Below, one piece after another: positions 6,291 through 64,000 of a stretch of 64,000 nt of DNA. Positions within the stretch are counted from its first letter, which is position 1. Each line of letters opens with the position of its first letter. The position numbers were made by a program, and so were the translations under genes. Under the pieces are notes generated by a model that saw nothing but the letters and a program-made list of their open reading frames with translations, had not been told where the DNA came from and made no database searches. Location: the NCBI RefSeq assembly GCF_009914755.1, contig NC_060925.1; one strand, written 5' to 3'. Source of the DNA: the human T2T-CHM13v2.0 reference genome, Homo sapiens.

Positions 6291-6309
6291 TCATGAGGCT
6301 GAGAACCTC

Positions 6310-25392: not shown

Positions 25393-26032
25393 AAGTCAGG
25401 AAACAACAGGTGCTGGAGAGGAACACTTTTACACTGTTGGTGGGACCATAAACTAGTTCAACCATTGTGGAAGTCAGTGTGGTGATTCCTCAGGGATCTA
25501 GAACTAGAAATACCATTTCACCCAGCCATCCCATTACTGAGTATATACCCAAAGGATTATAAAACATGCTGCTATAAAGACATATGCACATGTATGTTTA
25601 TTGCAGCACTATTCACAATAGCAAAGGCTTGGAACCAACCCAAATGTCCAATAATGATAGACTGGATTAAGAAAATGTAGCACATATACACCATGGAATA
25701 CTATGCAGCCATAAAAAATGATGAGTCCATGTCCTTTGTAGGGACATGGATGAAGCTGGAAACCATCATTCTCAGCAAACTATCACAAGGACAAAAAACC
25801 AAACACCACATGTTCTCACTCATAGGTGGGAATTGAACAATGAGAACACATGGACACAGGAAGTGGAACATCACACACCCGGGCCTGTTGTGGGGTGGGG
25901 GGAGGGATAGCATTAGGAGATATACCTAATGTTAAATGAAGAGTTAATGGGTGCCGCACACCAACATGGCACATGTATACATATGTAACAAAACTGCACG
26001 TTGTGCACATGTACCCTAAAACTTAAAGTATA
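25393..26032 (+). mobile_element. L1PA 3' fragment, no poly(A), no evident TSD
   Basis: AAGTCAGGAAACAACAGGTGCTGGAGAG...GTACCCTAAAACTTAAAGTATA, the primate L1 3' end. Confidence 0.88.
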
Positions 26033-34544: not shown

Positions 34545-37500
34545 AGTCTTACAGTTTATATTAACTAATATAACTAATTAATTTATTTAGACATGATTTT
34601 AAGTTACAAAGTGTAATGGAATTTGGTTAGGTTTCTAAACAGCATTGAAATGCTTAAGAAAACATAAGAATCAAAAGATGTATAAATTTTCTTCGAGTAT
34701 GTATTTGGAATTGTATTAGTCAGTGGGAGACTTAAAGTACTCTAAAATTGAGGATATCAACTTGGTAACCTCAGTTTAAGTTGTTAAGAGAGTTTAACCG
34801 AAGTTGTTAACTGGATCAATTATTACTCCAAAGCTCCTTGAAAAAATTACACAAATTTCTAGAATTTTAATTAAATTAATAACATTAGTTATCTAACTTA
34901 TGGCTCACAAAAAGCTGTATAATTGGTAACTTTAATAAAGTAAATATAAATTTTGTAAACCAAAGTGTGCCTTAAATCATCTTTGTGATACACAAAAGCC
35001 AACTTCAAGGACACAAAAACAGCGTATGGCAATGAAAAATGAACAGAAAACAAAAGCTTTATGAGTTGCAAAGAGCAGGCAGAAAAGGTAGACCTGGGTT
35101 TAGGAATCAACTCCAGAAGACTACTGGGCAAGAGGACAAGAGAGAGGAAAGGAGGGAAGAAGAAAAGGTGGAAGAAGGGCTTGATAGAGAGATAAGAGAG
35201 GTATTCCATGGCTTCAAAAGAAAATACTTTTGATTTTAAAAATTAACCAGCATATGGTAAATCAGCTCAGGATCCCACAGACCCACATACCAGGCCCCTC
35301 ACTTGCTTTTCTCCCACTCAAAGGTCCTACCTCCCTGCACCTCCCCACGGCTGCCCACCACCCTCTGAGAGCCACCTCTGCATATGGTGATTCAGGCCAG
35401 GACCCCACAAATCCACCTAAGTAAATCAGCACTGGCTGGTCAGTGACTCAGAGAGGTGGCCAACAAGTGAGGAAGAACAGGGTATCATGGGCAACTGACA
35501 CAGAAATTCTCAAAGACCTAGAAGATCCAGGATCCACGATCAGCTCATTCCACCCTCTTTGGCCTTGGCAGTGACATCACATGGGAGGGTCAATCCTCCC
35601 TCTTTTCACGGAAGAGTACTTTGCTTGGCAAGGCTGTTCTTGTCACTAGTGTTTATTTGTTCACACCTGCCTTAAATGCCAGTATGACTGAAATGTTGAA
35701 ACTCTCTCATCTTCATTGGTTTAGCCTAAATTTTCCCAGGCAATTAGTTTCTCTGAATATGAGCAGGTAAACACCCTTCCTTCCTCCACCCTTTTCCCGG
35801 CCGTCCTGGGACTACTTGAAACACAGGTGTGTCTTACCACACACAAACACTAAAACTCAAAAAGAGAGTAAATAACAATTACAGCTACTATTGAGCTAAT
35901 GGATTGCATATAAACATTCAAGATTCTTGGACTACAGGAGCCTTTACACCCACTCGCCTCCCCAGGAATGCTTCCCTGTATTCATTCATCAGACTGACAT
36001 TTGAGAATTTGGGTTATACGGACTTGTGTGATCACACCATATACCCTTTCAGTACCTGAATCTCCACTGCACATGCCACCGCTTTTCCTCCACCCAGCCT
36101 ACCACCACTCACCACTATGGACATTTCTTCAGCAGATAATTGCTCACTTTTTCCACTGGCTAGGGCTTGGGTATCATGCACCAAAATGCTGAAAGTTGAC
36201 TGGAAACCCTGTGTATTCATCTCTGGTGAACAGCCACCTCTCAACTTCACAGCTGCCAACAGATGGTGGTCCCATCTCCCTGGCACAGATAGTGAAGTCT
36301 CTTTTTTTGCCCAGGTATGGTTCCATAAGCACAGTTTTCCCTACCAAATAATACAACAAAGCAAACACATCAACCAGTGAAATTAGTGGATGTCTAACAT
36401 TACCCAAAGACCACAATTCCCCTCTTGAGCTCTGCCCAATGCTTCTGCCCTCCCCTCCCATGCCCCCCGAATCCCCAGCCCTGTACTCCAGCTATCAGTA
36501 TCTACGTCTGTCCTTTGGCCATGTACTAAGGACTTGTTCAGACCTTCTTCTTTGGTTTACCAATTTCCTTTTACACTCAACTTTAATCCTCCATTGAAAT
36601 TGGAGCGACCTACAGCTTCAGGTATCCAGCATCCTCCTGAATACATGAGACAAGTGACAGTCAAGCCATGTCCCATGAGAGGACCAGGAATTGGCTTCCA
36701 CTCTACTTCACCTCTCACCTTCCAGGGTCTATCAACACTCCCTGACTGAAAAAACTATCCTTAAATTATAACTCTCATGCTCAGAAGACCAGGTCTACTT
36801 CTCCAGACTGTCCCATTTAGTTTTTTCTAATGAACCTTTTTATCTATCAATTCCACAGAGTTCTTTCCTGGTGGCACCTATCACAATACGTGGTCTGGTC
36901 TCATGCGGTTGACTTTTGCTGTAGCATTACAACATAAGTTCAAGTCTTCTATCACTAACCTACCACCTACCAGTCCTTGCACACATCCTTCCCCCACTCA
37001 AGAGTCCTGCCCCCAATGCACCTCATTGCACCTTTCCTTTGGCTGCCCCCACAGAGACCCCAGAGATACTGTGGGAAAGGGCTTCTGTGTCCTCTTTCTC
37101 CCAGGCTACCCTTCCTCAGGAGATGGAAACCTTGCTAGTCACTCAATACCTGCAAAACTGGAGTTTCCGGTACAAAAAAAGAGTTAGACACATCACATTA
37201 GTAACTGGAATGAGGCACCCAAAAAACGGAAAACTGGGGCAAACCCTTTTGTTTTCCAAAAGTTTGACTGTGCTTGGGATCAAAGGTACAAGATTACTTT
37301 TTATGCCACCTTAATCCTCTGAAGCAGGAAGTTGAAGAAGAGACAGCTACTGGGATTATCCCTAAAAGGAGAGAAGAGTTCCATTAGGGCTTGGGCTAGC
37401 CTTCATCTGGGCCGGAAGAAGATTGTATGGTTGGACTGACAGTGACCACTTTTTTCAAGGTGGGGTTTTAAAGAATTAGGATAGTTAAGTGCATAAATAG

Positions 37501-40742: not shown

Positions 40743-41589
40743 CTAACTGGGTCCTAGTATTGGCTATGTAACCCTAGACAAGTTACTTTACATTTCTAGA
40801 CCTCAGTTCAGCAGTTGGAACACGTGGACTTTGGATTTTCTTCTTCCTGGAACTTCCTTTATGCACTCATGTTTGTTACTCACCCATGTATTTATCCATT
40901 GTCCATGTCTGCTTGTCAGTTTTAGTTACCTCCTACCCCCACCTGTCCAAGGTGCTCTTGTCCTCAGAAGATCCCACTGGCATGAATAAGACAGACTTGG
41001 AAACTTTTATCCTAGATAAAACTGGTCTGGAACACATAAAAAGTATTTCCCCAACAATTTTGATTCACTTCAATTCCTGAAATCTAACTTCTGACTTTCA
41101 AAGAAAATTCCACTTTGGCAGCTGTACAGGTACCAACAACAGTTTACCCTTACCTGGAAGAAGAGCCTTGGAGGAGAAAACACACCATGTCGGTATGGGT
41201 GTGACAAAGTCTACTTTTTCTAGCACTCCTGGGGCTCACAGAGAAGGCATTTATCAAGGGGCGAGATGAAAGCAGACTCAGATTTCATATAGCCAGTTCT
41301 TGCAGTCCATGTCAGTAAAAGTGAAAAAGCCCAGCAATAATGCATTGTCTCATTAAGGCTAATGTGAGTAAGATAATTCAAGTATGTAGATTTCTGGTAG
41401 TGTAATTTTATCTCAACAAAGAACTTAGAACAATGAGAAAAGTAAATAGAAACCATAATCCTATCATAACAGCCCCTGAAACCTGTGAGCGCAAGGGGGA
41501 TCTAGAATATTTCCAATGCCCCCTTGCAGTTAGTTAATCCCCTCCCAAAGGCACTGTTCAGATTCCTCACCATAGGTTAGTTTTCCTTA

Positions 41590-44634: not shown

Positions 44635-46860
44635 AGTAACCTTTTAACTGACTAAAATTGAAGTATAAATTAATAAAAGCTCACCAAGTACAGGTATACA
44701 ACTTAATAAAGCTTCATAAGCTAAACAACCATGCAACCAATGCACAAATGAAGAAATAACATGTTACCAGCATCTCAGAAGCAGTCCACCTGGGAAGCAG
44801 GTTCTCAAAAGCAGTCCGAGTCACTACCAGCCCCCAAACATTAACTTTTTCCTGGCATCTAACACTGTACATTTGTTCTTCATGTTCTGAACTGTATATA
44901 AAGGGAATCATACAGTATGAACTCTTTGGTGCCTGGATTTTTTTTCCCCAAAATTGTGTTTGTGATACTGATTCATTTTCTGGTTTGTAGATATAGATCG
45001 TTGATTCTCATTGCTGTATGGTATTTCTCTATGAGAATATACTACCATTTATGCATCCATTTTATTGCTAAAAGGTATTTTAGTAGTTTCCAATTTGGAA
45101 TTTTTAAAAATAGTGCTAATGTGAATATTTACGTATTTGTCCTTTTGTGACTATATGTACACACTTCTGTTAGGTACATACCTAGGAAAATATAATGACT
45201 GGGTCAGAGGATAGGGATATGCTCAGCTCTAGTGAATACTGTTAACTTTTCCAAATTCTTTCTACCATCTATTATTCCCATCAGCAGTGTGTGAAAGTTT
45301 CAATTGCTCCACACTCTGTCTAAACTTGGTATTGTCTATCTTTTTTCGTGTTAGCCATTTCGGTGGCTATGTGGAGATAACACGTTGTGACTTGAATTTG
45401 CATTTCTCTTATGAATGGTGAGATTAAACTCTTTATTATATGTTTATTGGAAATACAGAAATGCCCTTTCATGAATTGCCTGTTCAGGTTGTTCAGATAT
45501 TTTTCTATTTGCTCATTTCTTGTTTTTTTGTTGATCTGTGAGTAGGAACACATGTGTATATATGTTCTGGGAACAAGCCCTTTGTTAAATATAGATATTA
45601 CATACAGCTTCTCCATCTCTGTGGCTTGGCATTTTGCAATCTTGGTGGTGTTTTTGATAATCAGAAATTTTTAATTTTAATGAAATCCAATTTGTCATTT
45701 TTCCACCTTATTGGTATGCTTTTTATTACCTGATTAAGGAATCTTTCCTATTGACAAGATCTGAAGACATTCTCCCAGAGTTTAGAATTTTGTTTGTTTG
45801 TTTTTGGTTGTGTAATATATTTTTATTTTCTATGGGTACATAATATACATATTTATGGGGTACATGTGACATTTTGCTACACACATAGAATGTATAATGA
45901 TCAAGTCACAGTATTTAGAATATCCATCACCGTGAGCATTTATCGTTTATCTGTGGTGAGTACATTTCAGTTCCTCACTTCCAGATATTTTGAAAGATAC
46001 AACACATTCTCATTAACTATAGTCAGCTCACTCTAATATCAGTCATTAGAACTTGTTTATTCTATTTAACTATATGTTTGTACCCATTAACCAACCTCTC
46101 TTTATCCCCCACAACCCCATGCACATACACGCCTTTCCCAGCCTCTGGTAACTATCATTCTATTCTCTACCTTCATGAAATCACCATTTTTAGCTCCCAC
46201 ATATGATGGAACAGGTGATCATTGTCTTTCTGTGTCTGGCATATTCTATTTAACATAATGACCTCCATCCAGTTTCATCCATTTTGCTGCAAATAATATG
46301 ATTTCCTTATTTTTATGGCTGAGTGGTATTCCATTATATATATATATATAATATTTTCTTTGTGCATTCATCTGTTGATGGACTCTTAGGTTGATTCCAT
46401 ATCTTTGCTATTGTGATAGTGCTGCAGTAAACATTAGGATGTGTATATCCTTTTGATATACTGATTTTCTTTCCTTCAAATAAATACTTAGTAGTGGGAT
46501 TGCAGGATCACATGGTAGTTCTATTTTTAGTTATTTCAGAAATCTCCATACTGTTACCCATAATGGCTGTATTAATTTGCATACCCACCAATGGTGTATG
46601 AGAATTCTCTGCATCCTCTCAAGCATCTGTTATTCTTCATCTTTTTGATCATAGCCATTCTTGCTGGAGTGAGAGGATATCTCACTGTGGTTTTAGTTTG
46701 CATTGCCCTGAGGATTAGTGATATTGAGCAATTTTTCATATACTTGTTGGCCATTTGTATATCTTCTTTTTAGAAATGTCTGTTTAGATCCTTTGCCCAC
46801 TTTTTAACAGGATTGTTTGGTTTTTTGCTGTTGTTTGAGTTCCTGCATACCCAAAATATA
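44635..46860 (-). mobile_element. Stacked old L1 3' fragments: L1ME/MD-like about 44635-45790, L1MA-like about 45810-46860
   Basis: Two successive antisense L1 3'-end sequences. Confidence 0.7.
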
Positions 46861-52900: not shown

Positions 52901-53666
52901 TTATTTATAAGCTCCTGACTGGGGCTGCTGCCTTTCTTTCAGAGATGCCCCACCCAGTGAGGAGGAATTTAGAGAGGCAGTCTGGCCACAGCCGCTTTGC
53001 CATGCTGTGGTGAGTTTGGCTTCCTTAACACTGTAAGGGGAAACGGCCTACTCAAGCCTCAGTAATGCTAGACACACCTCCCCACACCAAGCTCAATCCC
53101 AGGTCAACTTCAGACAGCTGTGCTGGCAGCAAGAATTTCAAGCCAGTGGTTCTTAGCTTGCTGGGCTCCATGGGACCCGCTGATCAAGATCACTTCGCTC
53201 CCTGGCTTCAACACCCTTTCCAGGAGAGTGAACAGCTCTGTCTCACTGGGGCACCAGGCACCACTGGTGTATGAAAAAAAACTCCTGCAGCTAGCTCAAG
53301 GTCTGCCCAAACAGCCACCTAGTTTTGTGCTTGAAACCCAGGACCCTCATGGTGTAGGCACACGAGGGAATACCCTGGTCTGTGGGTTGCCAAAACCATG
53401 GGTAGTATCTGGGCCGGGTAGCACAGTCCCTCACGGCTTCCTTTGGCTAGGGACGGTAGTTCCCCACCCCTTTGCACTTCCCGGGTGAGGCAACGCCCCA
53501 CCCTGCTTCTGCTCACCCTCCATGGGCTGCACCCAATGTCTAACCAGTCCCAATGAGATGAACCAGGTACCTCAGTTGGAAATGCAGAAATCACCTGCCT
53601 TCTGCGTTGGTCTTGCTGGGAGCTCCAGACCAGAGCTGTTCCTATTCAGTCATCTTGCCAGCTCTC
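46926..53666 (-). mobile_element. Near full-length L1PA7/L1PA8-like LINE-1 (5' UTR, ORF1, ORF2, 3' UTR, poly(A)); ORFs disrupted
   Basis: 5' end GAGAGCTGGCAAGATGACTGAATAGGAACAGC at 53666. ORF1 pieces at 52277-52041 and 51956-51687; ORF2 start MMTGSNSHITILTLNVN at 51293; [16 protein letters not shown]. Flanking repeats TTTAAGAATTTTTTTAT (46871-46887) and TTTAAGAAATTTTTTAT (53667-53683). Confidence 0.95.
47611..47938 (-). mobile_element. AluS (Sq/Sp-like) nested in the L1, containing an internal inverted duplication
   Basis: TSD CCTGACTTTTT on both sides; Alu body otherwise typical. Confidence 0.93.
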
Positions 53667-54649
53667 TTTAAGAAATTTTTTATCTATGTTCTTGAAAGAG
53701 GTTCACCAAAGTTTTTCTTTTACATTTGAAATTTTTATATTGTTTTCTTCTACTTCAACTTGAATTTCCATTTTACTTCTTTATGACATTTTTAGTGTAA
53801 CATATGCTTAAATATATTTATTGACTACTCTCTTTGAAAGAATGTGTAAGTACATTGAAATTGAAATATTTGTCTATTATTCCCTATGGTTATAAGGCTC
53901 TGTGTTTATAAATTCTTCTAAGTCAGACATCATTATACTTATTAGGATTAATAATAATTATTGTTCATTTTACCAAATAAAATATACTTATATTTTATAG
54001 ATAATTATATTTAAAGTTTTATTAGAAACATTTAATGAACTTATAAGAGCTGTCTCTTTTTTGTTTTCAATTACTTCATAGAACCATAGAAAATATTATC
54101 TGTTGATAGTTTCCATCTTTTTATATGTAAGTAACTAAGGAAACTTGTTTATGTGGCTACTCAAGTTGGGTTTCCTGGCAGAGATGAGGGAGATTGCCAG
54201 AACATACAATTTAGTATGCTCCCAGATTCTAACACATAAGATGGGCCATGACAAGGGATACTAATGTTCCTGAAGAAGTAATGATCAAGTTGTAAGTCAT
54301 AGGGGTAGTACAGAAGGTCCAGGGAAGTTGCCAAGGTGGGATGAGTAAGGAGAAAAAATGCCTTAGGAACAGGGGACACAGAGTCAAAGAAAGGACGATA
54401 CCAACTCCTGGGAGGGGCAGACACTGCAGTTCCTAGCCATCTGTGGGGCAGCCCCACAAAAGCCTCCTGTAGGGTGGGCAGTCTCAGGAGCGAGTGCAAT
54501 GGGGATGTCTTGTCACTGACATTAAAGAAAGGGGTGATGAGAGAGGGTGTTTCTCCCTTGTGGTATTTTGGGGAATAATCTTCTTCACTGATGTTGTCTT
54601 ATACTAAAGTACTTTCTTCTTTCTCTCAGTTTACTTTCAACTAGGGAAA

Positions 54650-54825
54650 ATTTCCTAGCAGCAGCAGAAATAAGGCAAAGTCCCCTGCCAGCACCACTCC
54701 CAACTCAGGTCCCACAGCCCTGTCCTCCCCAGGTGCCTGAGCCCTGTCTCCCACCCTTCATACAGTAGAAGTCCAGCTGTTAATACCACTTATGCCAGCA
54801 AGACTGCGCAGCAAAGCAGAAATGA
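54650..54825 (+). pseudogene. Decayed SPRR-like gene (relic A), coding exon
   Basis: TACTAA (54602-54607), pyrimidine tract, acceptor AG at 54628-54629, then 20 nt to ATT at the start-codon position. With one 1-nt frameshift it reads (M)S*QQQK*GKVPCQ/PLPTQVPQPCPPQVPEPCLPPFIQ*KSSC*YHLCQQDCAAKQK*. Confidence 0.8.
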
Positions 54826-55933
54826 CCCTCAGAAGCCACCTTCTCTGACCTGGACAAGAGGATACTGCATCCCCCGCCCACTTCCATCCCCTTACTTCCA
54901 GCAATAATAGGGACCACCACACAACCTAGAAGATGCTACCTGTCTTCAGATTCAAGATGGAAGATATTGTCATAGTCTACTGGGGTCTCCTCCCTGAATC
55001 TACAGCCCCTCCCAGCTTTTCACCCAGGAGACAACATGGTTTAGACAGAGTGCCACGTTTTCAAACCTTCCACCTGTGATCCAAATATGCCATATTTCCA
55101 CCGGCTACCTTCTCTACCACACTGCCTTCTGCTGGCTATATGAGATTCCTGCAAGAACACAGAACATTCACATCTCTGCCTCAATGGAATTCAAAAACTT
55201 CATTAACGTTTCTAGGAGCAAACATTGTTTAAAAAAATTAACACATGAAAACTGCTTAAATCAATGAAAAATTTGCCAGAATTCTTTACAGCACAACTCC
55301 ACATTCTTTGATGAAGACAATCACATTGTCTGTTTGTATTTTCTCCCTAATAATCTCCATAAATCCTAACAAAGCTCACCCCTTCCTCTGGACTTTGAAC
55401 CTATTCCAAGACCTATGATGTTTTTTTTTTCTCTCTCTGCTTCCCAATCAAACATATGTATCCCTGACTGGTCATGTCTCTGCTCTTTGCTGGAGATGTA
55501 AAAAAGTCAAGAGAGACAAAGTCACAGAGAGACAAAGGACAAATGGAGGAAAGTGGAGACTGAATGGTAAATCCTTGGAAGGACCCTAGAGGCAATCAGG
55601 GGCCACCCAAGAGTGACAAGGGGACCTGGTTCAAGTCAGAAGGTCTTCTTTTTCCCTCTGGTTGCCCAGTCTCAGTCTCTGATTTCAGCTGCCTCCAGAC
55701 CCACCTCTACATGAGGCACCTATCCATTTCTGATTAGGGACTCGCCATGCAAGGAAGGTGAGGAGAGTACACAAAGGAGCCATCAGTGTCAGGGCTGCAG
55801 GAGGGATGAGCATGTGACAGGCCCTGCAAGGTTCATAGATGTGTGAGTGCTCAGCATCTGGGACCAGAATTGTGAGCCTGGCTCTGCACAGAGCCCAGTC
55901 TGTTGGGGATGGACCCCAGAGACAGTTATTACT

Positions 55934-56286
55934 GCAGCAGTTCTCACACTACTTGGCCTTGAAAATAATTTACACACTTAAGATTATTAAGGACCCTAAG
56001 TAGATTTTATTCATGTGATTTACATCTATTGATATTTCTTGTATTAAAAATTAAAACTAGAAAATAACACATTTTACATAAGTAGATATTGCACTAGCTG
56101 GCAGAGTGATGATGTCATTGCATATCATCTACTCTCCGGAAAATTCTACCATAGACTAATGAAAAAATATGAGTAAAAAAGTCAAATAATGTCAGCATTA
56201 TGATTAAAATTGTTTTGATCTCACTGACCCTACTGAATGCATCTCAGGGACCCCAAGGTTCCCACACCACACTTTGACAACCACTG
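55934..56286. mobile_element. hAT-Charlie MITE
   Basis: CAGCAGTTCTCA...GGGACCCCAAGGTTCCCACACCACACTTTGACAACCACTG, with hAT-type TIRs. Confidence 0.7.
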
Positions 56287-56719
56287 GTCTAGGGCATGAT
56301 TGTAGGCCAGGTCTCCAGGGTCTCAGAGCACAACACACCACAGTAGCACAAGTCTCAAAGGGTTGAGGACATTCTCCTTGGTCTCAGCTTACTTGTGGGT
56401 TTTATTTATGCCTGTTGTTTAACTATCCAGCTAAATTAAGTTCTGACCTTTAATTCAATAATCATTAATCAGAACCAATTTAGCACTGCTAAATTGAGTT
56501 CTGTACCATTATTCAACAACCATTGACAACAACAGCTAGAAAGCATCTAGTTTATAAAACCTGAAGACAAAGAGAATAAGACACTGAGGCTCACTAGAGA
56601 AGCCTCCTCGGTTGTCTCCTGCAGCAGTGGGGACACACATGTGCTGCATGAACCATTAGGCTGATCTGACGAGGGCTTCTATTAGGCACAGAGGGCATGT
56701 GGGATGATGTATTGAATGT

Positions 56720-56762
56720 ATGTCTTCATAAGGGACAGCCTTGAATTATGTGCAGGCTTGTG
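56720..56762 (+). repeat. Copy 1 of a 43-bp local duplication (copy 2 at 59092-59134)
   Basis: 41/43 identical by manual alignment. Confidence 0.9.
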
Positions 56763-58226
56763 GAAGCTGAGGAAGAAGGCAGAGCAGAGGATGTCTCCTG
56801 GGTTCCTATCTGGGTTTCTTCCTTGGGTTCCTAAGTGCAACTGGCAGGAGTTTCCTTGGGAGCTAATCATATTCAGTGATTATGGAAGTTTGAATCTAAT
56901 CATATTATATCCCAGTTCTCCTCCCACCAGCCACACAATAGCCTCTCCCTTATTTCCATGGAGGCAAAACCACATCATAGTCAATTGAAAAATATACCTG
57001 AAGGATAAAAAATTTCAAGAACAATCAAGAGTGGAGATGGAAGAGAAAGGATAAGAACTAATTTTATAGTAGGATTGGGAAGGTCCCCCCAAATTGCACC
57101 CACTTCCCTTTTGCCTAGTCAAGATTATAGGTTCCTGGGTCCCTTCACTGTGCACAGGAATGTACCTGCTGGTTGATTTCAGACTGAAACAAAGAGTAGA
57201 GCTTCTGGTTCTTGTTCTAAATCTTGTTATTAAACTCTTCTCCTGGGCCTAAATTTTTCTCAAGCTCTTTGCATTGTAGGTATGTAGAATATATTTTTCT
57301 CTACAATTTCCACAGCTTAAAGTCTTTTTGTTTAAGTTTAGCAGGCAGAATTTCTTAAATAAACTTTAAGCTGACACTACTGCCTGTGTAGGTAAGAACC
57401 CCCATCCATCATCCACTGTCCGGCCCCAAACCACTGATGTGTTTCTAGCACCACCACCTGGGAACTGGTGGTATCAAAAGATCAGAGCTACCTGGGCTAT
57501 GCCTTGGCAAGGAGCACAAGGTGCGTCCTTTGTGAGGCACACACTAGGACTAGGTTTCCATTTCTTTATTTTGAGAGATTAGGTAAACCTTCTCCTTGTC
57601 CGCTGACCAGCCCAGGAAGTCTTGGTGGTGAAGAGAAGAAAAGGATGTAGCTTTTCTTACATCCAATAAGATAAACAAATGCAGCTAGAGGACAAAAGAC
57701 TGGATAAACTGCCACAGGATGGTCGATATGCATTGACCTAGAAAGAGACAGAATCCCCTCTACATCATTCCTGGAGGTGACAGCTCCCCAGGAGGTTTTC
57801 TGTGACCCACTCACCCCCACCGATCATCCAAATGGATTTCCACAGCACGCTGAACAAACTTCAGCCATATTTCCCCACACTTAGCTCTGTGCCTCAACAT
57901 CAGTGACCACACTCACTCTTGCCTAGACTGCAGAGTATTTGTCCAGGTTGCTCTGTATCTTCATTCCCTATGCTGCCCTCAAACATGTGCATGCACACAC
58001 ACTCACACGCACACACATGCACACATGAGGACACAGGCATGCATATGCACACACAGGGTCTAGCCTCTGGGAGAGGCTCAATGACTTTAAACTTCATTTA
58101 ATCCTAAAGAGCAGAGCTAGAGGTGGTGTGAGTTAATGTTAAGCGATTTCATTTCAAGTCTCCGAAAGAGATGGTGGGATTGGGGTGGGGGCATATGAAA
58201 GATGCTAAACACCCAGCCCAGGAATC

Positions 58227-58304
58227 CTTATAGAAGAACTGTTTCCTGGAGATGAGGAGCTCAGCAAGTCCATTCTGCTTGTCTCCTCTCAGACACCAGG
58301 AAGT
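58227..58304 (+). promoter_or_regulatory. Candidate decayed TATA, exon 1 and splice donor of SPRR-like relic B
   Basis: CCTTATAGAAGAACT matches the SPRR2G TATA context CCTTATAAAAGGACT at 13/15. CCAG|G-AAGT lies 71 nt after the TATA, versus 69 nt (SPRR2G) and 72 nt (SPRR2C). Confidence 0.55.
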
Positions 58305-59091
58305 CCCAAAGACCTGAGGTGCTGCTGAGTAAATTAGACCTGCCTCCATATCCCTTTCTCTCACTCCCACATCTCCATCCAGGGCAGCTATCAAACTGGA
58401 ACCCCACTGGGGGCTTAGAGCAATCATACCTCCTCAGGTCTATGAGGGCTGCATGGACACCAGAGCCCCTTGCACACTTCCTGGCCACCATGCTCCAGCC
58501 CACAAGATGACAGCTGTAGATGAAGAAACCAAAGACACAGATCACAGACATGATTCTCTTCGACCTGAGCTGGAACTTAACTTTCTTGGATCCCATGCTT
58601 TGCTCCTCCTTCTGCATCATCTTGAGCTTGTACCCAGGCTAGGGTAAAAAAGGCCTGGGAATTTTACTCTTTCTGATGTTCAATTCTGATTCAATGATAC
58701 AATGTCAAACTGACATGTATTAACCTCCTGAAAAAAAAAGAGAGATCAGATTTTAAAGTAACTAGGAATAGCATAGATGAAGAAGAGAAACAGTCAATAA
58801 TAGGAGAAAAGACAAAATGTCTGCATAACTATTAATAGAATATATCAAAACACAGGAAAATTTGCATGACATTCTAAAAGTCATTTAGTCCTGCCTCCCA
58901 TCAAATTATTCTCCACCAAAAGGCCTTCAAAAGATTAGTTGGCACTTCATTAAACACTTGCTGGGCCAGACAGTTGATAAACTTAGGAAGTGCTGCTACT
59001 GGCCTGAGAAGAGGGTGTTAGCAACTTCTTCCTTACCTCCTGCCACTTCCACCCACATGTGCTGCTCCCACTCTCTGGAACTTTTGGGAGC

Positions 59092-59134
59092 ATGTCTTCA
59101 TAAGGTACAGCCTTGAATTATGTGCAGACTTGTG
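59092..59134 (+). repeat. Copy 2 of the 43-bp local duplication
   Basis: Aligns to 56720-56762. Confidence 0.9.
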
Positions 59135-59583
59135 CTCCCTCCTCCAAACTTTTCCTTCCTCAGACTAAAACTCCCCTACTCCACTTTCCATTTTTTAACA
59201 GGCACTCTATCTTGGTGCTTCCCAAACTTTTTGCTTTTTTTCTGAATCATTGCAATGTGAGAATGATTGTCTCAGACAGCAGCATCCGTAACCAGCCTCA
59301 GCCCTCTGAGTTTGGAGTAGACATGGGCAGGCATCGGCTCCTTGGTGCAGCCCCAGAGATACTCCCCTTGGCTGAGTGCTGTGCTCCAATGGAGGCAACC
59401 ATGGCTTTGATCATGGCAGTGAGTGAGTGGGAGTGAAGGTCTTAGTCCCCAAGGATGGAGAATTAGGGAGAGGAGAGGGAATATCTCACATGTGAACATT
59501 CAGGAGGAAGCTCCTCCACTGCTGTCACTAAAGCATAAAAGTTTATCTCCTGTTTTTTGCAGTGTATCATCAACACAGGAAAG

Positions 59584-59719
59584 ATGACCTAGCAGCAGCT
59601 GCAGCAGTGCCAGATCCCCTGCCAGTCCCCTTCTGGGTCCCCAAGCCCTGCTCTGTACCCCACAGCTGGCAGAAGTGGACTTCCTCTCCATGCTAACAGG
59701 AATACCACCAAAGCCAAAG
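59584..59719 (+). pseudogene. Decayed SPRR-like gene (relic B), coding exon
   Basis: CACTAA (59526-59531), TTTTTTGCAG acceptor (59561-59562), 21 nt, then ATG. With two frameshifts it reads MT*QQLQQCQIPCQSPS/VPKPCSVPHSWQKWTSSPC*QEY/PKPK. Confidence 0.75.
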
Positions 59720-60589
59720 AGGCTCTTCTGAAGCCTCCCTTCCCCGCAGCATCTAGGCAGTACGTTGCTCCCTGCACCCTCTCCAATCTCTTTCTTCCAG
59801 AATCACAAAGCCCAGAAATTACCTTTCATCTACTGAAAGAGAAAGATACCTTCATAGACCAACAATCTGAGAGCAGTTCATCAAGGGTATCCTCCCGGCT
59901 CCTCCTCCAAGCAAGGATTGGACACGTGGGCCATGTTTCGGTCTTCTTTGGTAAACAGCAGACCTGCTCTCCATTCTCTATTTTGACACTGTGTGGTCAG
60001 GACCAGTCAGTTCATCTAACTGTTGCCTCCACCACCACTACTGCCACTGCTGGCTCAAGAAGGCATCTCAAGTATGGAGTTTTCCTTCCTTAGCTCTCTG
60101 TACCCCTGGGTTCCACCATTTTGGGGGTCTTAAGTAGCAAGGATGATCGAAATTCTAAGAAAGAAAAACTGCTTTAGACAATGGTAAAGTCTTAAGAATT
60201 TTCTCTTTCCAATCCTTCAGCTTCAATCAAGACAATTACAACATTTATTTATCACCTCCTCTCCTAAGAGAGCTGACCCCTCAGTCTGCTCCTAAGCCTG
60301 TTTTGAACATGCTGAGATGACTCTTCCTTTCCTCTAGAGGCATGGGGACTCTATCTCACTCATCACACACACCTCCTTCCCTCGTGCTCCCACCCTGAGC
60401 ACCCCACAGCCCACAAGACCCCAACTCTCATGAGCAACAAGGAGAAGACCTTCCCAGGCCACTGGGCCTCCATAGGTGGTGAGTGACTCCTCCCAGGTCC
60501 TTCCCAGAAAACAGCAGGAATTAGACAAAAGTACACTCAGGACCTTCCTGGGGGCCAGGTGTACCATCCTTCCCCTTCCTTATCCTCTT

Positions 60590-61045
60590 TTTAAATTTAT
60601 TTATATTTTTGTGGTAAGAATATTTAACATGAGCTCTATCCTCTTAACAAATTGTAAGTGTATTAATACAATGCAATATTGTTGACTATGGGTACAAAGT
60701 TGTTCAGCAGATCTCTAGAGCTTATTCATCTTACTTAATTATTTTATGCCTGTTGATTAATAACTCATTTCATCCTCCCCCTGTCCCTGGTAACCACTGT
60801 TACAGCCTTTGATTTAATGAATTTGACTATTTTTAGATACTTGATGTAAGTGGAATGATGCAGTATTTGTCTTTCTGTATTTGACTTATTTCACTGCATA
60901 ATGTCCTCAAGGGCCATTTATGTTGTTGAATAAGGCAGAATTTCTTTCCTTTTTAAGACTGGATAGTATTCTATCATGTGTATATACCACATTTTCTTCA
61001 TTCATCTGTTGATGGACATTTAGGTTATTTTCACATCTTAGCTAA
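60590..61045 (-). mobile_element. L1MA-like 3' end
   Basis: TTTTGTGGTAAGAATATTTAACATGAG...CAGCAGATCTCTAGAGCTTATTCATCTT. Confidence 0.8.
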
Positions 61046-61682
61046 AGTTTGATTAGATAAAGCTGCTTATTCCAACTGCTACTGTTCCAGCCCATGCTGC
61101 CTCCTGTGGCAAAAGAAGATCATTAGGGAAACACAGTGCTGCCTCCCACTTTATTAAAAAATATGAAGACCTTGTAAAGCTGGTTAAGAAATTGACAAGA
61201 ACTACTTCAAATCATCTGAAAATGTCCCCCAAATTTCCTGACTTTGTGATCCCACACTCAGTGAAGGAAATGGGTCTCTGCTTTTCACTGCCTTCCTTAC
61301 CTGTGCAAAGAGATCTCGCTTTGTGCCCTGAGCCTGCAGAAGTCACTCTCAACCTGCTGAGGGATTTTCTCTTCATCTCTGCTCTCTCCATTAAGACATC
61401 TGCCCCAGTGGGTCCCCAGTTTATTGCCCTTGCTTGTAGCTGGGAAGGTGATGGTGTCACAGGAGGAAAAAGGAAACAGAAGCCTGGTGGGCACCTTAGG
61501 AGGAGCCCTCAGGTAAAATGTGGACTCCACAGAGGAGTCCGGTAGAGCTTCACTCAAGAGAATGACTCCCATTTACCCACAGGATCCTTCCCTACCATGC
61601 CTGGCCCAGCTACCTCCCTGCCAAGTCCACTCCATCCTGTGTCCTCCCCAGTTCTCCTGAAGTGGGTCTCCCCAGGCAGAGA

Positions 61683-61683
<1 letters not shown>

Positions 61684-61722
<39 letters not shown>
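61684..61722. repeat. (TG)n microsatellite
   Basis: Read directly. Confidence 0.95.
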
Positions 61723-61726
<4 letters not shown>

Positions 61727-62049
61727 TGGAGGATGAAGAGGAGGTGCAGGGCAAGATAAACCCTAGCTGCAGGGAAGGGGAGATGGACACTCGCTGAAGC
61801 TTGAGTCCATCTCTGCTTGGGAGCCTGGATCAGATGGCGGCTGTATCCTGGACAAATCCAACAAGATCTGGGATTTTCAGCCTACACAGCCCAGCGGTAC
61901 CTGCCTCCTGGAATCTCTGGGCCTCATACAGATATATTCATGTTGGAAGCTGACCCTGAGAAACAGATCTCCATCTCCATAAAGTTGGATCTCCCTCCTC
62001 TGACAGACAGTTTATTTGATTCTTATCTCCCCTGCTGAACTTTGTCTTG

Positions 62050-63600
62050 TATATCCATTCATTTATTTCCCAAATATTCACTGAGCATCTATTATATGTC
62101 AGGCCCTGGCCCAGCACTAAAGATGCAAAGAATAATAAGAAAGCCCTTTCCTGGATTAGGGCACTGTATGAGACAGAAGACAGCATTGCCCCCCGGCAGA
62201 ACAGGTGGGGAGTCAATCCATGGGGAGCACATCAGGCATGTTCAGAGATGGTATCTCTTAACTGCAGCAGGGTGGGGGTCCAGAGCAGTCCACATGGAAG
62301 GTGGAATTTTCAAATTGTATATAGAAGATAAAAAATAAATATTAATAAGGCAAAAAGGAGGGTGATACTCCAGTTAGAGAGAAAAGCAATTGCGAAACCA
62401 TTGAAATATTATTCCATCTCCTTATTGACAAGAAGCATTAACTATTGCCTGGCCAACATGTGCCAAGACACACACTGGACACTGCAGAAACAGAGATTTT
62501 AAAAAGTAATTGGTTCCTGATCTCTACACTACATCATGTGAGAGAGTAGATCAGGAAGTAAATAACTACAAAATATGGGGATAAAAATTTCAGAATGAGC
62601 TTGGCTAAGGCAACTAACTGCCTGGGAAGGTGAGAGAAATCATGCCCAAGGAGAATTTCCTATGAGTTCAAGGTTGAGGAGGAGAGAGGGAGGACTCGGC
62701 TGGCAGAGCAAAAACTCGGAGTTTAAAAAAATAAAAAAAGTCTAGCATATTTTGGAAACTGCAAGTAGCTTTACCCCAGAATCTACGGTAAAAGTAGAAG
62801 ACCGAGCTGAAAGTAGACACCAGATTAGTAAGAGTTTTGTTGACCCAACCAAGAGCCTTGGGCCTCATCTTAAATTCAATAGTAAAATTAAGCTTTTGTT
62901 TTATAAAATTCACTTCGGCAATGCTGTGGGGGTTGAATTAGTGGTGAGACTCTTTGGAGACAGGGAGACCTGTGATGATGATGCCACAATAAAGGCAGCA
63001 ACCACGGCTGTGAGAGAATGGGGGACCAACTTGAGAGAAATGTGCCTGCAGCTCCCAAACACACCCTGGCTTAGAAGCCTGTGGCTCAGGAGGTAGAATC
63101 TGCAGATCCTGATAGCACATTTGGTGTGAGGTTGAGTAGGAAGCAAGAGTCTGGGATGATCCCAGGTTTCTTGTTAAGTCTTGGTGGACAGGATGCTATT
63201 CACAGAGTCGGAGCCCATAAGAGGAGCAAGAGGGGCATGTTAGGAAAAATGTGGAAGGTGTTGAACTCTGATTTTGTAAAATCAGCTTGAGGTACCAAAG
63301 TACATCCAATGGATGTTAGTATTGGGACCTAAAGCTCAGGGAAGAGGGTGGGCTTTGGGATTCTCTATGCAGAGCTGGTACTTTCAGCAATGGTGGATAA
63401 TAATATCAGCAGCAAGGGTGAAAAATGAAGGTGCAGGTGATGTTGAAAGGATTCAACAGAGGAGAAAGGGCTCGGGAAGGAGAGTAGATGAGGCTGTAAG
63501 TGGGAGTCTACCCATGTCACAGAGGACCAAAAGGGAAGAGGGTTAAAATATAGGACACAACTGTAACAATTACTGCAGTAAAGTCAAATAGGATAAACCC
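62050..63600 (-). mobile_element. L2 fragments
   Basis: CATTCATTTATT..AATATTCACTGAGCATCTATTATATGTCAGGC (antisense L2 3' end), followed by purine-rich L2-like blocks. Confidence 0.55.
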
Positions 63601-64000
63601 TGAACCATGTCCATGAGGATTTCGTAGAACATTCTTCCCCCTTTATATAATGAATGAGCAAAAATACACAAATATCAAGAAAAACTTACGCAATGGTGAT
63701 TGATAAACAGTGAAAGGGGAGGATGTATATCTGGTTCCCATGGGCCAGATATGAGCCATAAGGGAGGGAAAACTGGCTGTCCAGGTGGTCTAAAATCCTG
63801 TCCAAGAGGTGAAGATGAGGAATACCAGCCAAGAGAAGCTGTAGGAGAGCTTGCCAATGCCTAGGCGCTACAGGAGCCATGCACAGCTAGACAAAGCAGA
63901 CATGCCTGTTATACTAAAGAACTGTGGCCAACACCCAGCCAGCAGGGAGAGGAGAGTCTGTGAAGGACACATTCAAGTTCTCCACGGGAGAAAGGTCAGC

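What the first reader, a model, noticed from the sequence alone, without database searches (positions are those of the whole stretch)
54602..59719. Pair of plus-strand fossil genes suggesting an extinct SPRR subfamily distal to SPRR2G
Seen: two decayed exons about 4.9 kb apart align codon for codon at the start. Relic A: CAAC-TAGGGAAA ATT TCC TAG CAG CAG CAG AAA TAA GGC AAA GTC CCC TGC CAG. Relic B: CAACACAGGAAAG ATG ACC TAG CAG CAG CTG CAG CAG TGC CAG ATC CCC TGC CAG. Both have an ACTAAAG branch site and an acceptor 20-21 nt before the start position (19 and 21 nt in SPRR2C and SPRR2G). Both have V/I-P-C-Q where SPRR2 has Q-P-C-Q, and both face opposite to the SPRR2 genes. Established: single-coding-exon EDC genes share this layout. 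Inference: a small paralogous family, distinct from SPRR2, was lost in the human lineage and may be intact in other mammals. I do not recall it being annotated but cannot confirm that.
Basis: partly seen in the sequence, partly recalled or inferred. Interest (0 to 1): 0.88.

Follow-up and report, generated by a model that had tools for sequence, protein, structure and literature searches.

The report
Decayed SPRR gene copies beside LELP1
Between SPRR2G and LELP1 the human genome holds two broken copies, plus part of a third, of an old skin-barrier (SPRR) gene whose closest intact relative found here is a ground-squirrel protein; this adds a lost gene to the human inventory but is an ordinary kind of gene loss.

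Summary
Relic A (coding remnant 54650-54825) and relic B (59584-~59723) each have a splice acceptor 20 or 21 nt before an SPRR-type start. They align over ~940 nt, intron and 3' flank included (nhmmer E 5.5e-33). A partial third copy lies at 60312-61695. Both are SPRR-family exon-2 units, each other's nearest kin in a DNA tree (98/99) and outside the human SPRR2 clade (AU p 0.047, borderline).

A profile search found an intact relative, the Arctic ground squirrel protein 'small proline-rich protein 2E-like' (P0037). It alone of 76 proteins carries the relics' [VI]PCQ head and QVP[EQ]PC octamers. It shares an unbroken 17-residue run with relic A, and relic A is its best match in the whole human genome. 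Synteny was not testable.

The relics are long dead. A has a lost start, four in-frame stops and a frame change, and there is no coding constraint between A and B. A shared stop at codon 3 and a shared frame phase suggest one gene died and was then duplicated, rather than two working genes being lost.

Relic A's acceptor now starts the last exon of lncRNA LOC101928009.

Verdict: new member of a known kind, modest interest.

The parts
54483..54629 (+). Relic A: 3' end of the former intron, with ACTAAAG (54603-54609), a pyrimidine run and the acceptor AG (54628-54629)
   Evidence: Read. Aligns with B 59412-59562 (nhmmer; 58.7% identity over 143 nt). The acceptor is used by NR_110685.1, whose exon 3 starts at 54630 (annotation).
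54630..54649 (+). Relic A: 20-nt 5'UTR part of the former coding exon
   Evidence: SPRR2G has 21 nt here and SPRR2C has 19.
54650..54825 (+). Relic A: decayed coding sequence. The start reads ATT. Stops lie at 54656-58, 54671-73, 54766-68 and 54781-83. There is a net -1 frame change within 54692-54708. The final TGA is at 54823-25, where SPRR2 genes stop.
   Evidence: Translations. nhmmer to the SPRR2G CDS at E 6.8e-6 and to SPRR1A at E 9e-5 and 1.5e-4. Best human match of squirrel P0037 (window 54682-54822, E 2.3e-8).
54826..55767 (+). Relic A: former 3'UTR and downstream flank. It is homologous to B (to 55426) and to the partial copy C (54828-55762).
   Evidence: nhmmer. The first 60 nt resemble the 3'UTR start of SPRR1A/1B/SPRR3 and SPRR2.
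54630..56227 (+). Last exon of lncRNA LOC101928009 (NR_110685.1). It contains all of relic A's exon. An ATTAAA lies about 20 nt before its end.
   Evidence: RefSeq annotation. GT donors at 39198 and 41193 and the end of the exon were read.
59412..59562 (+). Relic B: 3' end of the former intron, with ACTAAAG (59527-59533) and the acceptor AG (59561-59562)
   Evidence: nhmmer. SPRR2E/2F/2A exon-2 queries reach into it (59467-59647, E 3e-5 to 7e-6).
59563..59723 (+). Relic B: 21-nt 5'UTR part and decayed coding sequence. The ATG is kept (59584-86). TAG at 59590-92. The same frame phase change as A follows 59625. Gaps of 6, 19, 5 and 6 nt against A remove most of the repeats. TAA at 59694-96, a 1-nt gap in the tail, and no stop where A stops.
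   Evidence: nhmmer to SPRR2G at E 4.5e-7. P0037 is the best of 76 proteins (39.7 bits).
59724..60325 (+). Relic B: former 3'UTR and flank
   Evidence: Colinear with A 54828-55426.
60312..60575 (+). Partial third copy C, first piece. It matches A 54828-55101, that is, from just after A's stop codon.
   Evidence: nhmmer E 1.2e-6 (pairwise) and 3.9e-4; 57.4% identity over 263 nt. This is the weaker of the two pieces.
61068..61695 (+). Partial third copy C, second piece. It matches A 55094-55767.
   Evidence: nhmmer E 4.7e-17 and 6.7e-18; 60.3% over 599 nt.
60537..61065 (.). Old interspersed repeat lying between the two pieces of copy C. It is not part of the gene unit.
   Evidence: nhmmer finds relatives at 24657-25174, 45950-46424, 3812-4110, 25613-26000 and in L012. 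Those places are partly masked as repeats.

Best explanation
These are dead copies of one old SPRR-type gene, with no coding function left. [quoted passage not shown] They encode a small proline-, glutamine- and cysteine-rich cross-linking substrate of the cornified envelope.

Each copy keeps the end of the intron, the acceptor, about 20 nt of 5'UTR, a broken coding sequence and the 3'UTR. No first exon or promoter was found.

The lineage is a subtype of its own:
- an SPRR2-like head, but with V/I in place of Q before P-C-Q;
- eight-residue Q-V-P-[E/Q]-P-C-P-P repeats, like SPRR1 in length and lacking the extra cysteine of the SPRR2 nonamer;
- an SPRR2-like tail.

The lineage is still open in at least one rodent, the Arctic ground squirrel protein P0037.

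Inferred history, about 0.55-0.6 likely for the order of events. A single gene stood at the LELP1 end of the SPRR2 cluster. It was disabled early on the line to primates, after the split from rodents. A unit of about 4.9 kb was then copied in tandem, giving A, B and the truncated C. All copies have drifted since.

Shown: homology, decay, and the use of relic A's acceptor and exon as the terminal exon of lncRNA LOC101928009.

Inferred: the time of death, the order of death and duplication, and the ancestral function, which is taken from what is established for SPRR proteins.

The confidence of 0.8 is for the core claim: dead SPRR-family copies of a subtype that is intact in the squirrel.
For: - A and B are homologous over about 940 nt, including non-coding parts (E 5.5e-33). 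Copy C matches at E 4.7e-17.
- SPRR homology runs both ways: A to SPRR2G at E 6.8e-6 and to SPRR1A at 9e-5 and 1.5e-4; SPRR2G to B at 4.5e-7 and to A at 1.2e-5; SPRR1A to A at 1.4e-4.
- DNA tree of 19 rows and 440 columns: A+B at 98/99, outside SPRR2+PRR9. AU test: with SPRR2 p 0.047, with PRR9 p 0.022, with SPRR1/3 p 0.22.
- Intact relative P0037. It is the only one of 76 proteins with [VI]PCQ, QVP[EQ]PC and PCLPP. The longest shared run with A's centre piece is 17 residues, against 7 for the next best.
- P0037 is the best of 76 on A (62 bits against 42) and on B (39.7 against 26.6).
- Its best place in the whole human genome is relic A (E 2.3e-8; the next is SPRR2C at 6.6e-4).
- Protein tree: A+P0037 at 98/96, with P0037's end branch 0.025 and A's 0.61.
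- Decay: four in-frame stops in 58 codons. In simulated neutral drift of five human SPRR genes this is reached in 0.5% of runs at 0.1 substitutions per site, 1.4% at 0.15 and 8.3% at 0.275.
- No constraint between A and B: coding identity 91 of 141, non-coding 425 of 700, p 0.45; differences by codon position 19, 12, 16, p 0.49.
- Shared lesions, read: TAG at codon 3 in both, and the spacer between head and first repeat is 17 nt in A and 11 nt in B, both 2 mod 3.
- The lncRNA exon starts at 54630.
Against: - The genomic place of the squirrel gene is unknown, so orthology rests on sequence alone. Only one such protein was found, and the query that found it contained relic pieces.
- With gapped tblastn and no composition correction, P0037 scores higher on intact SPRR2G (82.8 bits) and SPRR2C (80.9) than on the single unbroken frame of A (62). 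The 'best human match' therefore depends on the scoring scheme.
- The A-B distance is K2P 0.55 over all 841 aligned columns. It falls to 0.33-0.37 only in high-confidence columns. The higher value would put the duplication before the primate-rodent split, which fits two once-working genes better than my preferred order.
- The shared TAG could be two independent hits. I roughly estimate a coincidence chance of about 0.05. A shared frame phase has a chance of about 1 in 3.
- The rejection of an SPRR2 clade is borderline, and the protein tree does not separate the pair from SPRR2-type proteins.
- No exon 1 or promoter remnant was found.
Confidence: 0.8

Rival explanations
1. Two paralogous genes of this subtype were both functional in an ancestor, A and B having duplicated before the primate-rodent split, and each died on its own on the way to humans.
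For: - K2P 0.55 between A and B over all aligned columns is about 0.27 per copy. That exceeds the roughly 0.17 substitutions per site that I recall for the human line since the human-mouse ancestor. This figure is recalled and comes from no call.
- Most lesions are private. In the 14-codon head, 1 difference from P0037 is shared, 4 are private to A and 4 to B.
- EDC families commonly expand. The papers give 34 SPRR genes in the elephant and 21 in the dugong (passages of PMC11039687).
Against: - Both copies share TAG at codon 3 and the same frame phase.
- There is no excess of coding identity and no third-position excess between A and B.
- K2P drops to 0.33-0.37 in well-aligned columns, which allows a duplication after the split.
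- Only one intact relative was found.
Confidence: 0.35
2. The relics are merely old, inverted, decayed copies of a canonical SPRR2 gene such as SPRR2G. The resemblance to the squirrel protein is then convergence in a low-complexity family.
For: - B's head and acceptor region match SPRR2G best among human genes (70% over 98 nt).
- Both tails resemble the SPRR2 tail.
- P0037 carries Pfam SPRR2, and its nearest Atlas clusters are SPRR2-like.
- The protein tree leaves the pair unresolved among SPRR2-type rows.
Against: - AU p 0.047 against a clade with the six human SPRR2 genes.
- A's repeats and intron end match SPRR1A/1B, not SPRR2.
- The V/I-P-C-Q head, the octamers without the extra cysteine and the 17-residue run shared with P0037 occur in 0 of the 75 other proteins.
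- Convergence on 17 consecutive residues by a drifting pseudogene is not credible.
Confidence: 0.07
3. Relic A is no longer only a fossil. As the 1.6-kb terminal exon of lncRNA LOC101928009, it has a regulatory RNA role in the EDC, as has been proposed for the transcribed pseudogene SPRR2C.
For: - The RefSeq curated lncRNA NR_110685.1 splices onto relic A's acceptor exactly. Its splice sites are canonical.
- A paper on a lncRNA role of SPRR2C appears in the listing (PMC8386546, title and abstract start only).
Against: - No evidence of function. The only paper that names LOC101928009 is a cancer expression survey (listing only).
- The sequence drifts at the same rate inside and outside the former coding part.
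- No Rfam family matches. The one hit is sub-threshold: mir-297 at 57984-58034, 25.9 bits against a cut-off of 90.
Confidence: 0.1
4. Chance resemblance of proline-, glutamine- and cysteine-rich low-complexity DNA. There is no gene relic at all.
For: - The Pfam scan of the open pieces found nothing relevant.
- Two word-based protein searches were blank.
- Weak P/C-rich matches to P0037 also occur at 36446-36514 and 40875-40976.
Against: - A-B homology at E 5.5e-33 extends through non-coding flanks.
- The acceptor, the 5'UTR length, and the order head, repeats, tail, stop and 3'UTR motif all follow the SPRR layout.
- The blanks are uninformative. Human SPRR5 also gets no Pfam hit. Human SPRR2A/B/D/E share three 5-residue words with the query yet were not reported.
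Confidence: 0.01

Closest known systems
Human SPRR2 genes (SPRR2A, B, D-G) and Pfam PF14820
   Same: - EDC location and the two-exon layout, with the whole CDS in exon 2 and the acceptor about 20 nt before the start.
- A head of the M-S-x-Q-Q-Q..C-K-x-P-C-Q type.
- A tail of the C-Q-x-K-[YC]-P-P-K-x-K type followed directly by a similar 3'UTR start.
- The intact relative P0037 carries PF14820.
   Different: - Opposite strand.
- V or I instead of Q before P-C-Q.
- Repeats of eight residues without the first cysteine of the SPRR2 nonamer.
- The tail of A and of P0037 ends in Q-K, not S-K.
- Outside the human SPRR2 clade in the DNA tree (AU p 0.047).
- Not open.
SPRR1A/SPRR1B (cornifins, Pfam PF02389) and SPRR3
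   Same: - Same strand as the relics.
- Eight-residue x-P-x-V-P-E-P-C repeats. A 54686-54788 is 69.5% identical to the SPRR1A repeats plus tail.
- The intron end and the 3'UTR motif resemble SPRR1/3.
- A clade with SPRR1/3 is not rejected (AU p 0.22).
   Different: - SPRR1/3 have a long double head (..K-Q-P-C-x-P-P-P-Q-x-Q-Q-Q-Q-V-K-Q-P-C-Q) and a single Q-Q-K-T-K-Q-K tail.
- The protein tree puts A+P0037 outside SPRR1+SPRR4 (90/86).
SPRR2C, the known transcribed pseudogene of this cluster (window 4933-6349, minus strand)
   Same: A disabled SPRR gene in the same cluster that is still transcribed as non-coding RNA. It has an in-frame stop early in the head.
   Different: SPRR2C is a young, nearly full-length copy of the SPRR2 type, with its own exon 1 and promoter (nhmmer E 1e-179 to SPRR2A exon 2). 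The relics are far older, lack a detectable exon 1, and belong to another subtype.
'small proline-rich protein 2E-like', Urocitellus parryii (P0037; UniParc UPI000E55D8BF as named)
   Same: - Colinear with relic A from the start to the stop. The head has the same 14 positions, including K-V-P-C-Q.
- A 17-residue identical run, QVPQPCPPQVPEPCLPP.
- The same tail plan ending in Q-K.
- Its residues just before the SPRR start resemble the translation of relic B's 21-nt 5'UTR.
   Different: - Open reading frame with three octamers (A keeps two, B one).
- The database model has 41 extra N-terminal residues that match nothing in the window and may be a prediction artefact.
- Its genomic place is unknown.
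PRR9 and LELP1, the plus-strand neighbours
   Same: Same strand and the same SEDC gene layout. PRR9 has a related head.
   Different: - A clade with PRR9 is rejected (AU p 0.022).
- The PRR9 exon-2 query matches SPRR2G and SPRR2C, but neither PRR9 nor LELP1 queries give any nhmmer match to the relics at E<=0.01.
- A clade with LELP1 is not rejected (p 0.45), but LELP1 is a very long branch (1.49), so this says little.

Membership tests
[quoted passage not shown] | Location inside the SPRR cluster at 1q21 | tested here: met
   Window chr1:152272001-152336000. The relics lie between SPRR2G and LELP1.
[quoted passage not shown] | Two-exon layout: non-coding exon 1, one intron, and the whole CDS in exon 2 with the acceptor about 20 nt before the ATG | tested here: inconclusive
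   The exon-2 side is met: acceptors 20 and 21 nt before the start position, and the intron end is homologous between A and B. No exon 1 or promoter remnant was found with nine SPRR/PRR9/LELP1 promoter queries plus SPRR2G at nhmmer E<=0.01.
[quoted passage not shown] | Gln-rich head with the ..C-K/Q-x-P-C-Q motif | tested here: met
   Pieces GKVPCQ (54674-54691) and QQLQQCQIPCQSP (59593-59631). They align with SPRR heads.
[quoted passage not shown] | Central tandem proline-rich repeats ending in P-E/Q-P-C | tested here: met
   A has two octamers within 54694-54765, 69.5% identical at DNA level to the SPRR1A repeats. B keeps one (V-P-K-P-C).
[quoted passage not shown] | Lys/Gln tail (K-x-K) followed by the stop and a family-like 3'UTR start | tested here: met
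   A: the piece YHLCQQDCAAKQK, then TGA at 54823-25, then a motif shared with the SPRR1/3 and SPRR2 3'UTRs. B: the tail is recognisable but frame-shifted and has no stop.
[quoted passage not shown] | Open reading frame | tested here: not met
   A has a lost start, four in-frame stops and one frame change. B has two stops, frame changes and deletions. They are pseudogenes of the family, not genes.
[quoted passage not shown] | Match to the curated Pfam models PF14820 or PF02389 | tested here: inconclusive
   0 relevant families for the three open pieces (24, 45 and 34 aa). The test is weak: human SPRR5 gets 0 families and SPRR4 stays below the cut-off. The intact relative P0037 carries PF14820.
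SPRR2 subfamily in the narrow sense | K-Q-P-C-Q head and nine-residue P-K-C-P-E-P-C-P-P repeats | tested here: not met
   The head has V/I for Q. The repeats are eight residues long and lack the first Cys. KQPCQ is present in 52 of 76 proteins compared, but not in P0037 or the relics.
SPRR2 subfamily in the narrow sense | Groups with the SPRR2 genes in a tree | tested here: inconclusive
   DNA tree: outside the clade, AU p 0.047. Protein tree: unresolved among SPRR2-type rows, and relic B's place is unreliable because of its long branch, 2.79.
SPRR1/cornifin subfamily | Double head, x-P-K-V-P-E-P-C octamers and a Q-Q-K-T-K-Q-K tail | tested here: inconclusive
   The octamers and intron end are alike, and AU p 0.22 does not reject a clade. 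The head is single and the tail is of the SPRR2 plan. The protein tree puts A+P0037 outside SPRR1+SPRR4.
Orthologue of the squirrel gene encoding P0037 | Reciprocal best match | tested here: met
   P0037's best place in the human genome is relic A. P0037 is the best of the 76 proteins compared on A and on B. Limits: only 56 database proteins were at hand, and with another scoring scheme intact SPRR2G scores higher.
Orthologue of the squirrel gene encoding P0037 | Same genomic neighbourhood and strand (between the SPRR2 array and LELP1) | not testable with these tools
   No mammalian genome other than the human reference can be reached, and the protein search gives no genomic context.
Processed (retrocopied) pseudogene | No intron, poly(A) tail, dispersed location | tested here: not met
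   The intron end and acceptor are kept, the copies are homologous in the intron and in the flank beyond the transcript, and they stand in tandem in the parent cluster.

The most novel reading that the evidence does not exclude
The relics mark an unrecognised SPRR subtype. Its features are a V/I-P-C-Q head, cysteine-poor Q-V-P-E-P-C octamers and an SPRR2-like tail. On this reading it is a real, conserved, working gene at the LELP1 end of the cluster in some mammals, sciurid rodents at least. It was present in the primate-rodent ancestor or earlier and was lost early in primates. Its human remnant survives as the terminal exon of a spliced lncRNA. Mammals would then differ in a whole class of cornified-envelope cross-linker that gene catalogues now hide under automatic 'SPRR2-like' names.
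Probability: 0.5. Interest if true: 0.45.

Novelty: new member of a known kind. Interest (0 to 1): 0.35.

Why it matters
**Inventory.** The human SPRR inventory is quoted as 12 genes (passages of PMC8192740 and PMC11039687). These relics show that the cluster once held at least one more subtype at its LELP1 end, and that an open relative still exists in a rodent. This gives comparative work on the skin barrier three things:
- a concrete lost gene to trace across mammals;
- a dated example of birth and death in the EDC;
- an origin for the last exon of the lncRNA LOC101928009.

**Annotation.** The intact relative is hidden under an automatic 'SPRR2E-like' name.

**Limits of the claim.** It does not change what is known about how SPRR proteins work. 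No human phenotype follows from it.

Tried and rejected
**Whole-genome DNA search.** With each relic (341 nt) as query, only the relic itself was found (1 match each). The search was too insensitive, so I used local nhmmer and blastn instead.

**Word-based protein searches.** Searches with open pieces of A (45 aa) and B (70 aa, region 1-40) found no candidate. I give these blanks little weight. Human SPRR2A/B/D/E (72 aa, within the length range) share three 5-residue words with the query yet were not reported.

**Pfam on the pieces.** Nothing relevant. There was one chance hit, CSLinker, 15 bits against a cut-off of 27.

**Union alignment.** An alignment of relic pieces only (A3) piled all the Cys motifs on one column, so I did not search with it.

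**Further copies and first exons.** I looked in the window plus 30 kb beyond it (L011-L013) with 10 exon-2 and 10 promoter/exon-1 queries. Nothing turned up besides A, B and the known genes.

**Weak P/C-rich matches.** P0037 gives weak matches at 36446-36514 and 40875-40976. Neither has an SPRR head, repeats or tail in any frame. I take them as chance.

**N-terminal extension of P0037.** Its 41 extra residues have no credible match upstream of A, B, SPRR2G or SPRR2C (best 13 bits).

**Atlas and Rfam.** The Atlas returned only generic SPRR2 and cornifin clusters. Rfam over 53000-62500 gave one sub-threshold hit.

**An idea I dropped.** I first thought the gene had died before a duplication more than 100 million years ago, so that no placental mammal could have it open. 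The intact squirrel relative, the 17-residue unbroken run, and the lower K2P in well-aligned columns speak against so early a death.

**A shared stop near the tail.** I also considered a shared TAA, but nhmmer aligns B's TAA with a CAG of A. I count it as not shown.

**Flaws in my own runs:**
- In the protein tree the relic B row ended with three residues taken from the wrong frame. Its placement was unreliable in any case.
- In the DNA tree the B tail segment was cut 2 nt off the aligned stop position.
- Rows left out of the DNA tree: SMCP, LCE1A, CRCT1 and SPRR2C.
- Rows left out of the protein tree: 43 of the 56 database hits (mostly SPRR4 and cornifin orthologues) and 10 of the 20 human EDC proteins. 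Five rows were trimmed of model extensions: P0037, P0041, P0042, P0045 and P0050.

**Literature.** I ran six full-text searches. I read passages only of PMC8192740, PMC10791643 and PMC11039687. Figures and supplementary tables of those papers list EDC genes and pseudogenes per species. I could not see them, and they may bear on whether the relics or the squirrel-type gene have been noted. GENCODE and pseudogene catalogues could not be consulted.

Full report
**1. The observation**

Relic A:
- ACTAAAG at 54603-54609 and an acceptor AG at 54628-54629.
- After 20 nt comes a start position that now reads ATT (54650-54652).
- The next 13 codons include TAG (54656-58) and TAA (54671-73) and end in the V-P-C-Q codons (54680-54691).

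Relic B:
- ACTAAAG at 59527-59533 and an acceptor AG at 59561-59562.
- After 21 nt comes an intact ATG (59584-86), then TAG at codon 3 (59590-92), and I-P-C-Q at 59614-59625.

SPRR2G has 21 nt and SPRR2C has 19 nt between acceptor and ATG. Nine human SPRR proteins (1A, 1B, 2A, 2B, 2D-2G, 4) read K-Q-P-C-Q at that place.

The 7-mer ACTAAAG is not enriched in the window (11 found, 12.5 expected), so only its position counts. Both relics face the same way as LELP1 and PRR9 and opposite to the SPRR2 genes. The interval 53653-64000 holds no masked repeat of 100 bases or more.

**2. How far the likeness goes**

The two relics are homologous far beyond the start codon.
- nhmmer aligns A 54483-55426 with B 59412-60325 at E 5.5e-33. 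This covers about 150 nt of intron, the whole former coding part and about 600 nt of 3' flank.
- Identity is 58.7% in the intron (143 nt), 64.5% in the coding part (141 nt) and 61.1% in the 3' part (537 nt). Overall K2P is 0.55.

The 3' part of A is matched a second time just after B. A 54828-55101 aligns with 60312-60575 (E 1.2e-6 pairwise), and A 55094-55767 aligns with 61068-61695 (E 4.7e-17). This is a partial third copy, C. It lacks the coding head and is split by an old interspersed repeat (about 60537-61065) that has relatives elsewhere in the window.

No further copy and no exon-1 or promoter remnant was found in the window or in the 30 kb beyond it.

**3. What family**

I compared the relics with 20 fetched stretches of the human EDC.
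- Relic A aligns with the whole SPRR2G coding exon (E 6.8e-6).
- It also aligns with SPRR1A in two parts: intron end plus head at E 1.5e-4, and repeats plus tail plus 3'UTR start at E 9e-5.
- Relic B aligns with the acceptor and head of the SPRR2 genes (SPRR2G E 4.5e-7).
- The reverse searches find the relics again.
- PRR9 and LELP1 queries do not.

The anatomy is a mosaic:
- the head and tail follow the SPRR2 plan;
- the repeats are eight residues long like SPRR1 and lack the extra cysteine of the SPRR2 nonamer;
- the intron end and a 3'UTR motif resemble SPRR1/3.

I built a maximum-likelihood tree of intron end, head, tail and 3'UTR start (19 rows, 440 columns). It joins A and B at 98/99 and places them outside the SPRR2+PRR9 group, in an unresolved set with SPRR1/3, SPRR4, SPRR5, LELP1 and LCE6A. 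Holding the relics together with other groups gives these AU results:

| Held together with | AU p |
|---|---|
| Six human SPRR2 genes | 0.047 |
| PRR9 | 0.022 |
| SPRR1/3 | 0.22 |
| LELP1 (a very long branch) | 0.45 |

The relics are therefore SPRR-family, form a pair, and are not simply SPRR2 copies. Their deeper placement is open.

**4. Another mammal**

No mammalian genome other than the human reference can be reached with these tools, so I used the protein database.

Two searches with open pieces of the relics were blank. The blanks mean little, because human SPRR2A/B/D/E share three words with one of the queries and were still not listed.

A profile of five human SPRR proteins plus three relic pieces (A4) returned 56 proteins out of 272 scored candidates. 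Another 2874 candidates of unnamed source were left out.

One of the 56 is P0037, 'small proline-rich protein 2E-like' of Urocitellus parryii. Its last 65 residues are an open SPRR protein colinear with relic A from start to stop. The evidence that links it to the relics:
- It is the only one of 76 proteins (56 hits plus 20 human EDC proteins) with [VI]PCQ, with QVP[EQ]PC and with PCLPP.
- It shares an unbroken run of 17 residues (QVPQPCPPQVPEPCLPP) with relic A's centre piece. The next best run is 7.
- It is the best-scoring protein on A (62 bits against 42) and on B (39.7 against 26.6).
- Searched against the whole human genome, its best place is relic A (window 54682-54822, E 2.3e-8, 62% identity, one TAG and one TAA inside). 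SPRR2C (6.6e-4), SPRR2F and SPRR2E come next.
- In a protein tree of 26 rows, A and P0037 join at 98/96. The squirrel branch is very short (0.025) and the relic branch long (0.61).

Evidence on the other side:
- With gapped tblastn and no composition correction, P0037 scores higher on intact SPRR2G and SPRR2C (82.8 and 80.9 bits) than on A's single unbroken frame.
- Pfam, NCBI's name and the Atlas all file P0037 under SPRR2-type.
- The query that found it contained relic pieces.
- Its genomic place is unknown.

**5. State of decay, age and order of events**

Lesions:
- A has lost its start. It has four in-frame stops and a net -1 frame change between head and repeats.
- B has two stops and the same frame phase change. 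It shows gaps of 6, 19, 5, 6 and 1 nt against A, and has no stop where A stops.

Age of the decay:
- I let five intact human SPRR genes drift in simulation. Four stops per 58 codons were reached in 0.5% of runs at 0.1 substitutions per site, 1.4% at 0.15 and 8.3% at 0.275.
- Taking P0037 as a proxy for the ancestor, 23 of 61 aligned codons differ. By my rough conversion this is about 0.15-0.25 substitutions per site.
- I recall a figure of about 0.17 for the human line since the human-mouse ancestor. This figure comes from no call.
- The gene has therefore been dead for most or all of the time since primates and rodents parted. The loss is old and not human-specific. This is an inference.

Between A and B there is no sign of coding constraint. 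Coding identity is 91 of 141 and non-coding identity 425 of 700 (p 0.45). Differences at codon positions 1, 2 and 3 are 19, 12 and 16 (p 0.49).

Two lesions look shared. Both copies have TAG at codon 3. The spacer between the head and the first repeat is 17 nt in A and 11 nt in B, both 2 mod 3 (read).

K2P between A and B is 0.55 over all columns but 0.33-0.37 in well-aligned columns. That is 0.17-0.27 per copy, about as old as or older than the primate-rodent split.

I therefore prefer, at about 0.55-0.6, that one gene died and was then copied in tandem.

**6. What it does now**

As coding genes, the relics do nothing.

Relic A's acceptor and the 1.6 kb after it are the last exon of the curated lncRNA LOC101928009 (NR_110685.1). 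That transcript starts 15.6 kb upstream at 39070 and has canonical splice sites. The fossil exon therefore still works as a splice acceptor and transcript end.

Whether that RNA has a role is unknown. The one paper that names it is an expression survey (listing only).

The ancestral protein would have been a transglutaminase substrate of the cornified envelope. This follows from what is established for SPRR proteins and was not tested here.

**7. Is it known?**

- RefSeq annotates neither relic as a pseudogene.
- Full-text searches found nothing about them: SPRR2G+LELP1+pseudogene, LOC101928009, SPRR6, EDC+SPRR+PRR9+LELP1+comparative genomics, SPRR+pseudogene+EDC+evolution, and EDC+SPRR2+primates+gene loss.
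- Passages of three comparative EDC papers count 12 human SPRR genes and do not mention a remnant next to LELP1.
- I could not see their figures or supplementary gene tables, nor GENCODE, so an existing annotation cannot be excluded.

**8. Verdict**

- A lost SPRR subtype with an intact relative elsewhere: yes.
- Two once-working genes: doubtful.
- Distinct from SPRR2: only at subtype level.
- Lost in the human lineage: lost much earlier.

It is a new member of a known kind, a family pseudogene, in a cluster known for birth and death of genes. It is of modest interest to specialists in skin-barrier evolution.

Noticed in passing
window 56720-56762 and 59092-59134: A 43-nt stretch is 41 of 43 identical at these two places, although the surrounding units are only about 61% alike and its flanks do not align. 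It is not colinear with the A-to-B offset. Its invariant 21-nt core occurs only at these two places in the whole genome. It could be a recent micro-conversion or a small constrained element; this is unexplained.
   Followed up: partly
window 58430-58727, 59850-60154, 61301-61439 (minus strand): The predicted long SPRR2G transcript XM_054338463.1 (Gnomon) has upstream exons that run antisense across relic B and copy C. It starts at 67380-67804, next to the LELP1 promoter. This suggests antisense or read-through transcription over the fossil units.
   Followed up: no
window 60537-61065: This is an old interspersed repeat with at least six relatives in the window and one near PRR9. It is not soft-masked here, while its relatives are partly masked. 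It lies inside copy C, so it was inserted after that copy arose.
   Followed up: partly
protein P0055 (Microcebus murinus, 68 aa): A mouse-lemur 'uncharacterized protein' has a canonical SPRR2 head followed by a K-V-P-E-P-C unit and an aberrant tail. It could be a mis-modelled or hybrid SPRR gene of a primate. It is not specially close to the relics.
   Followed up: no
protein P0037 residues 1-41: The squirrel model has a 41-residue N-terminal extension before the SPRR start. The last 7-8 of those residues look like a translation of the 5'UTR part of exon 2 (compare relic B 59560-59583). The rest matches nothing here. The extension is probably a gene-prediction artefact.
   Followed up: partly
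tool behaviour: The word-based protein search reported no candidate, although human SPRR2A/B/D/E (72 aa, within the length range) share three 5-residue words with the query. Blanks from this search on low-complexity queries should not be read as absence.
   Followed up: yes
window 57984-58034 (minus strand): A sub-threshold Rfam match to mir-297 (25.9 bits against a gathering score of 90, E 0.47). I take it as chance.
   Followed up: no
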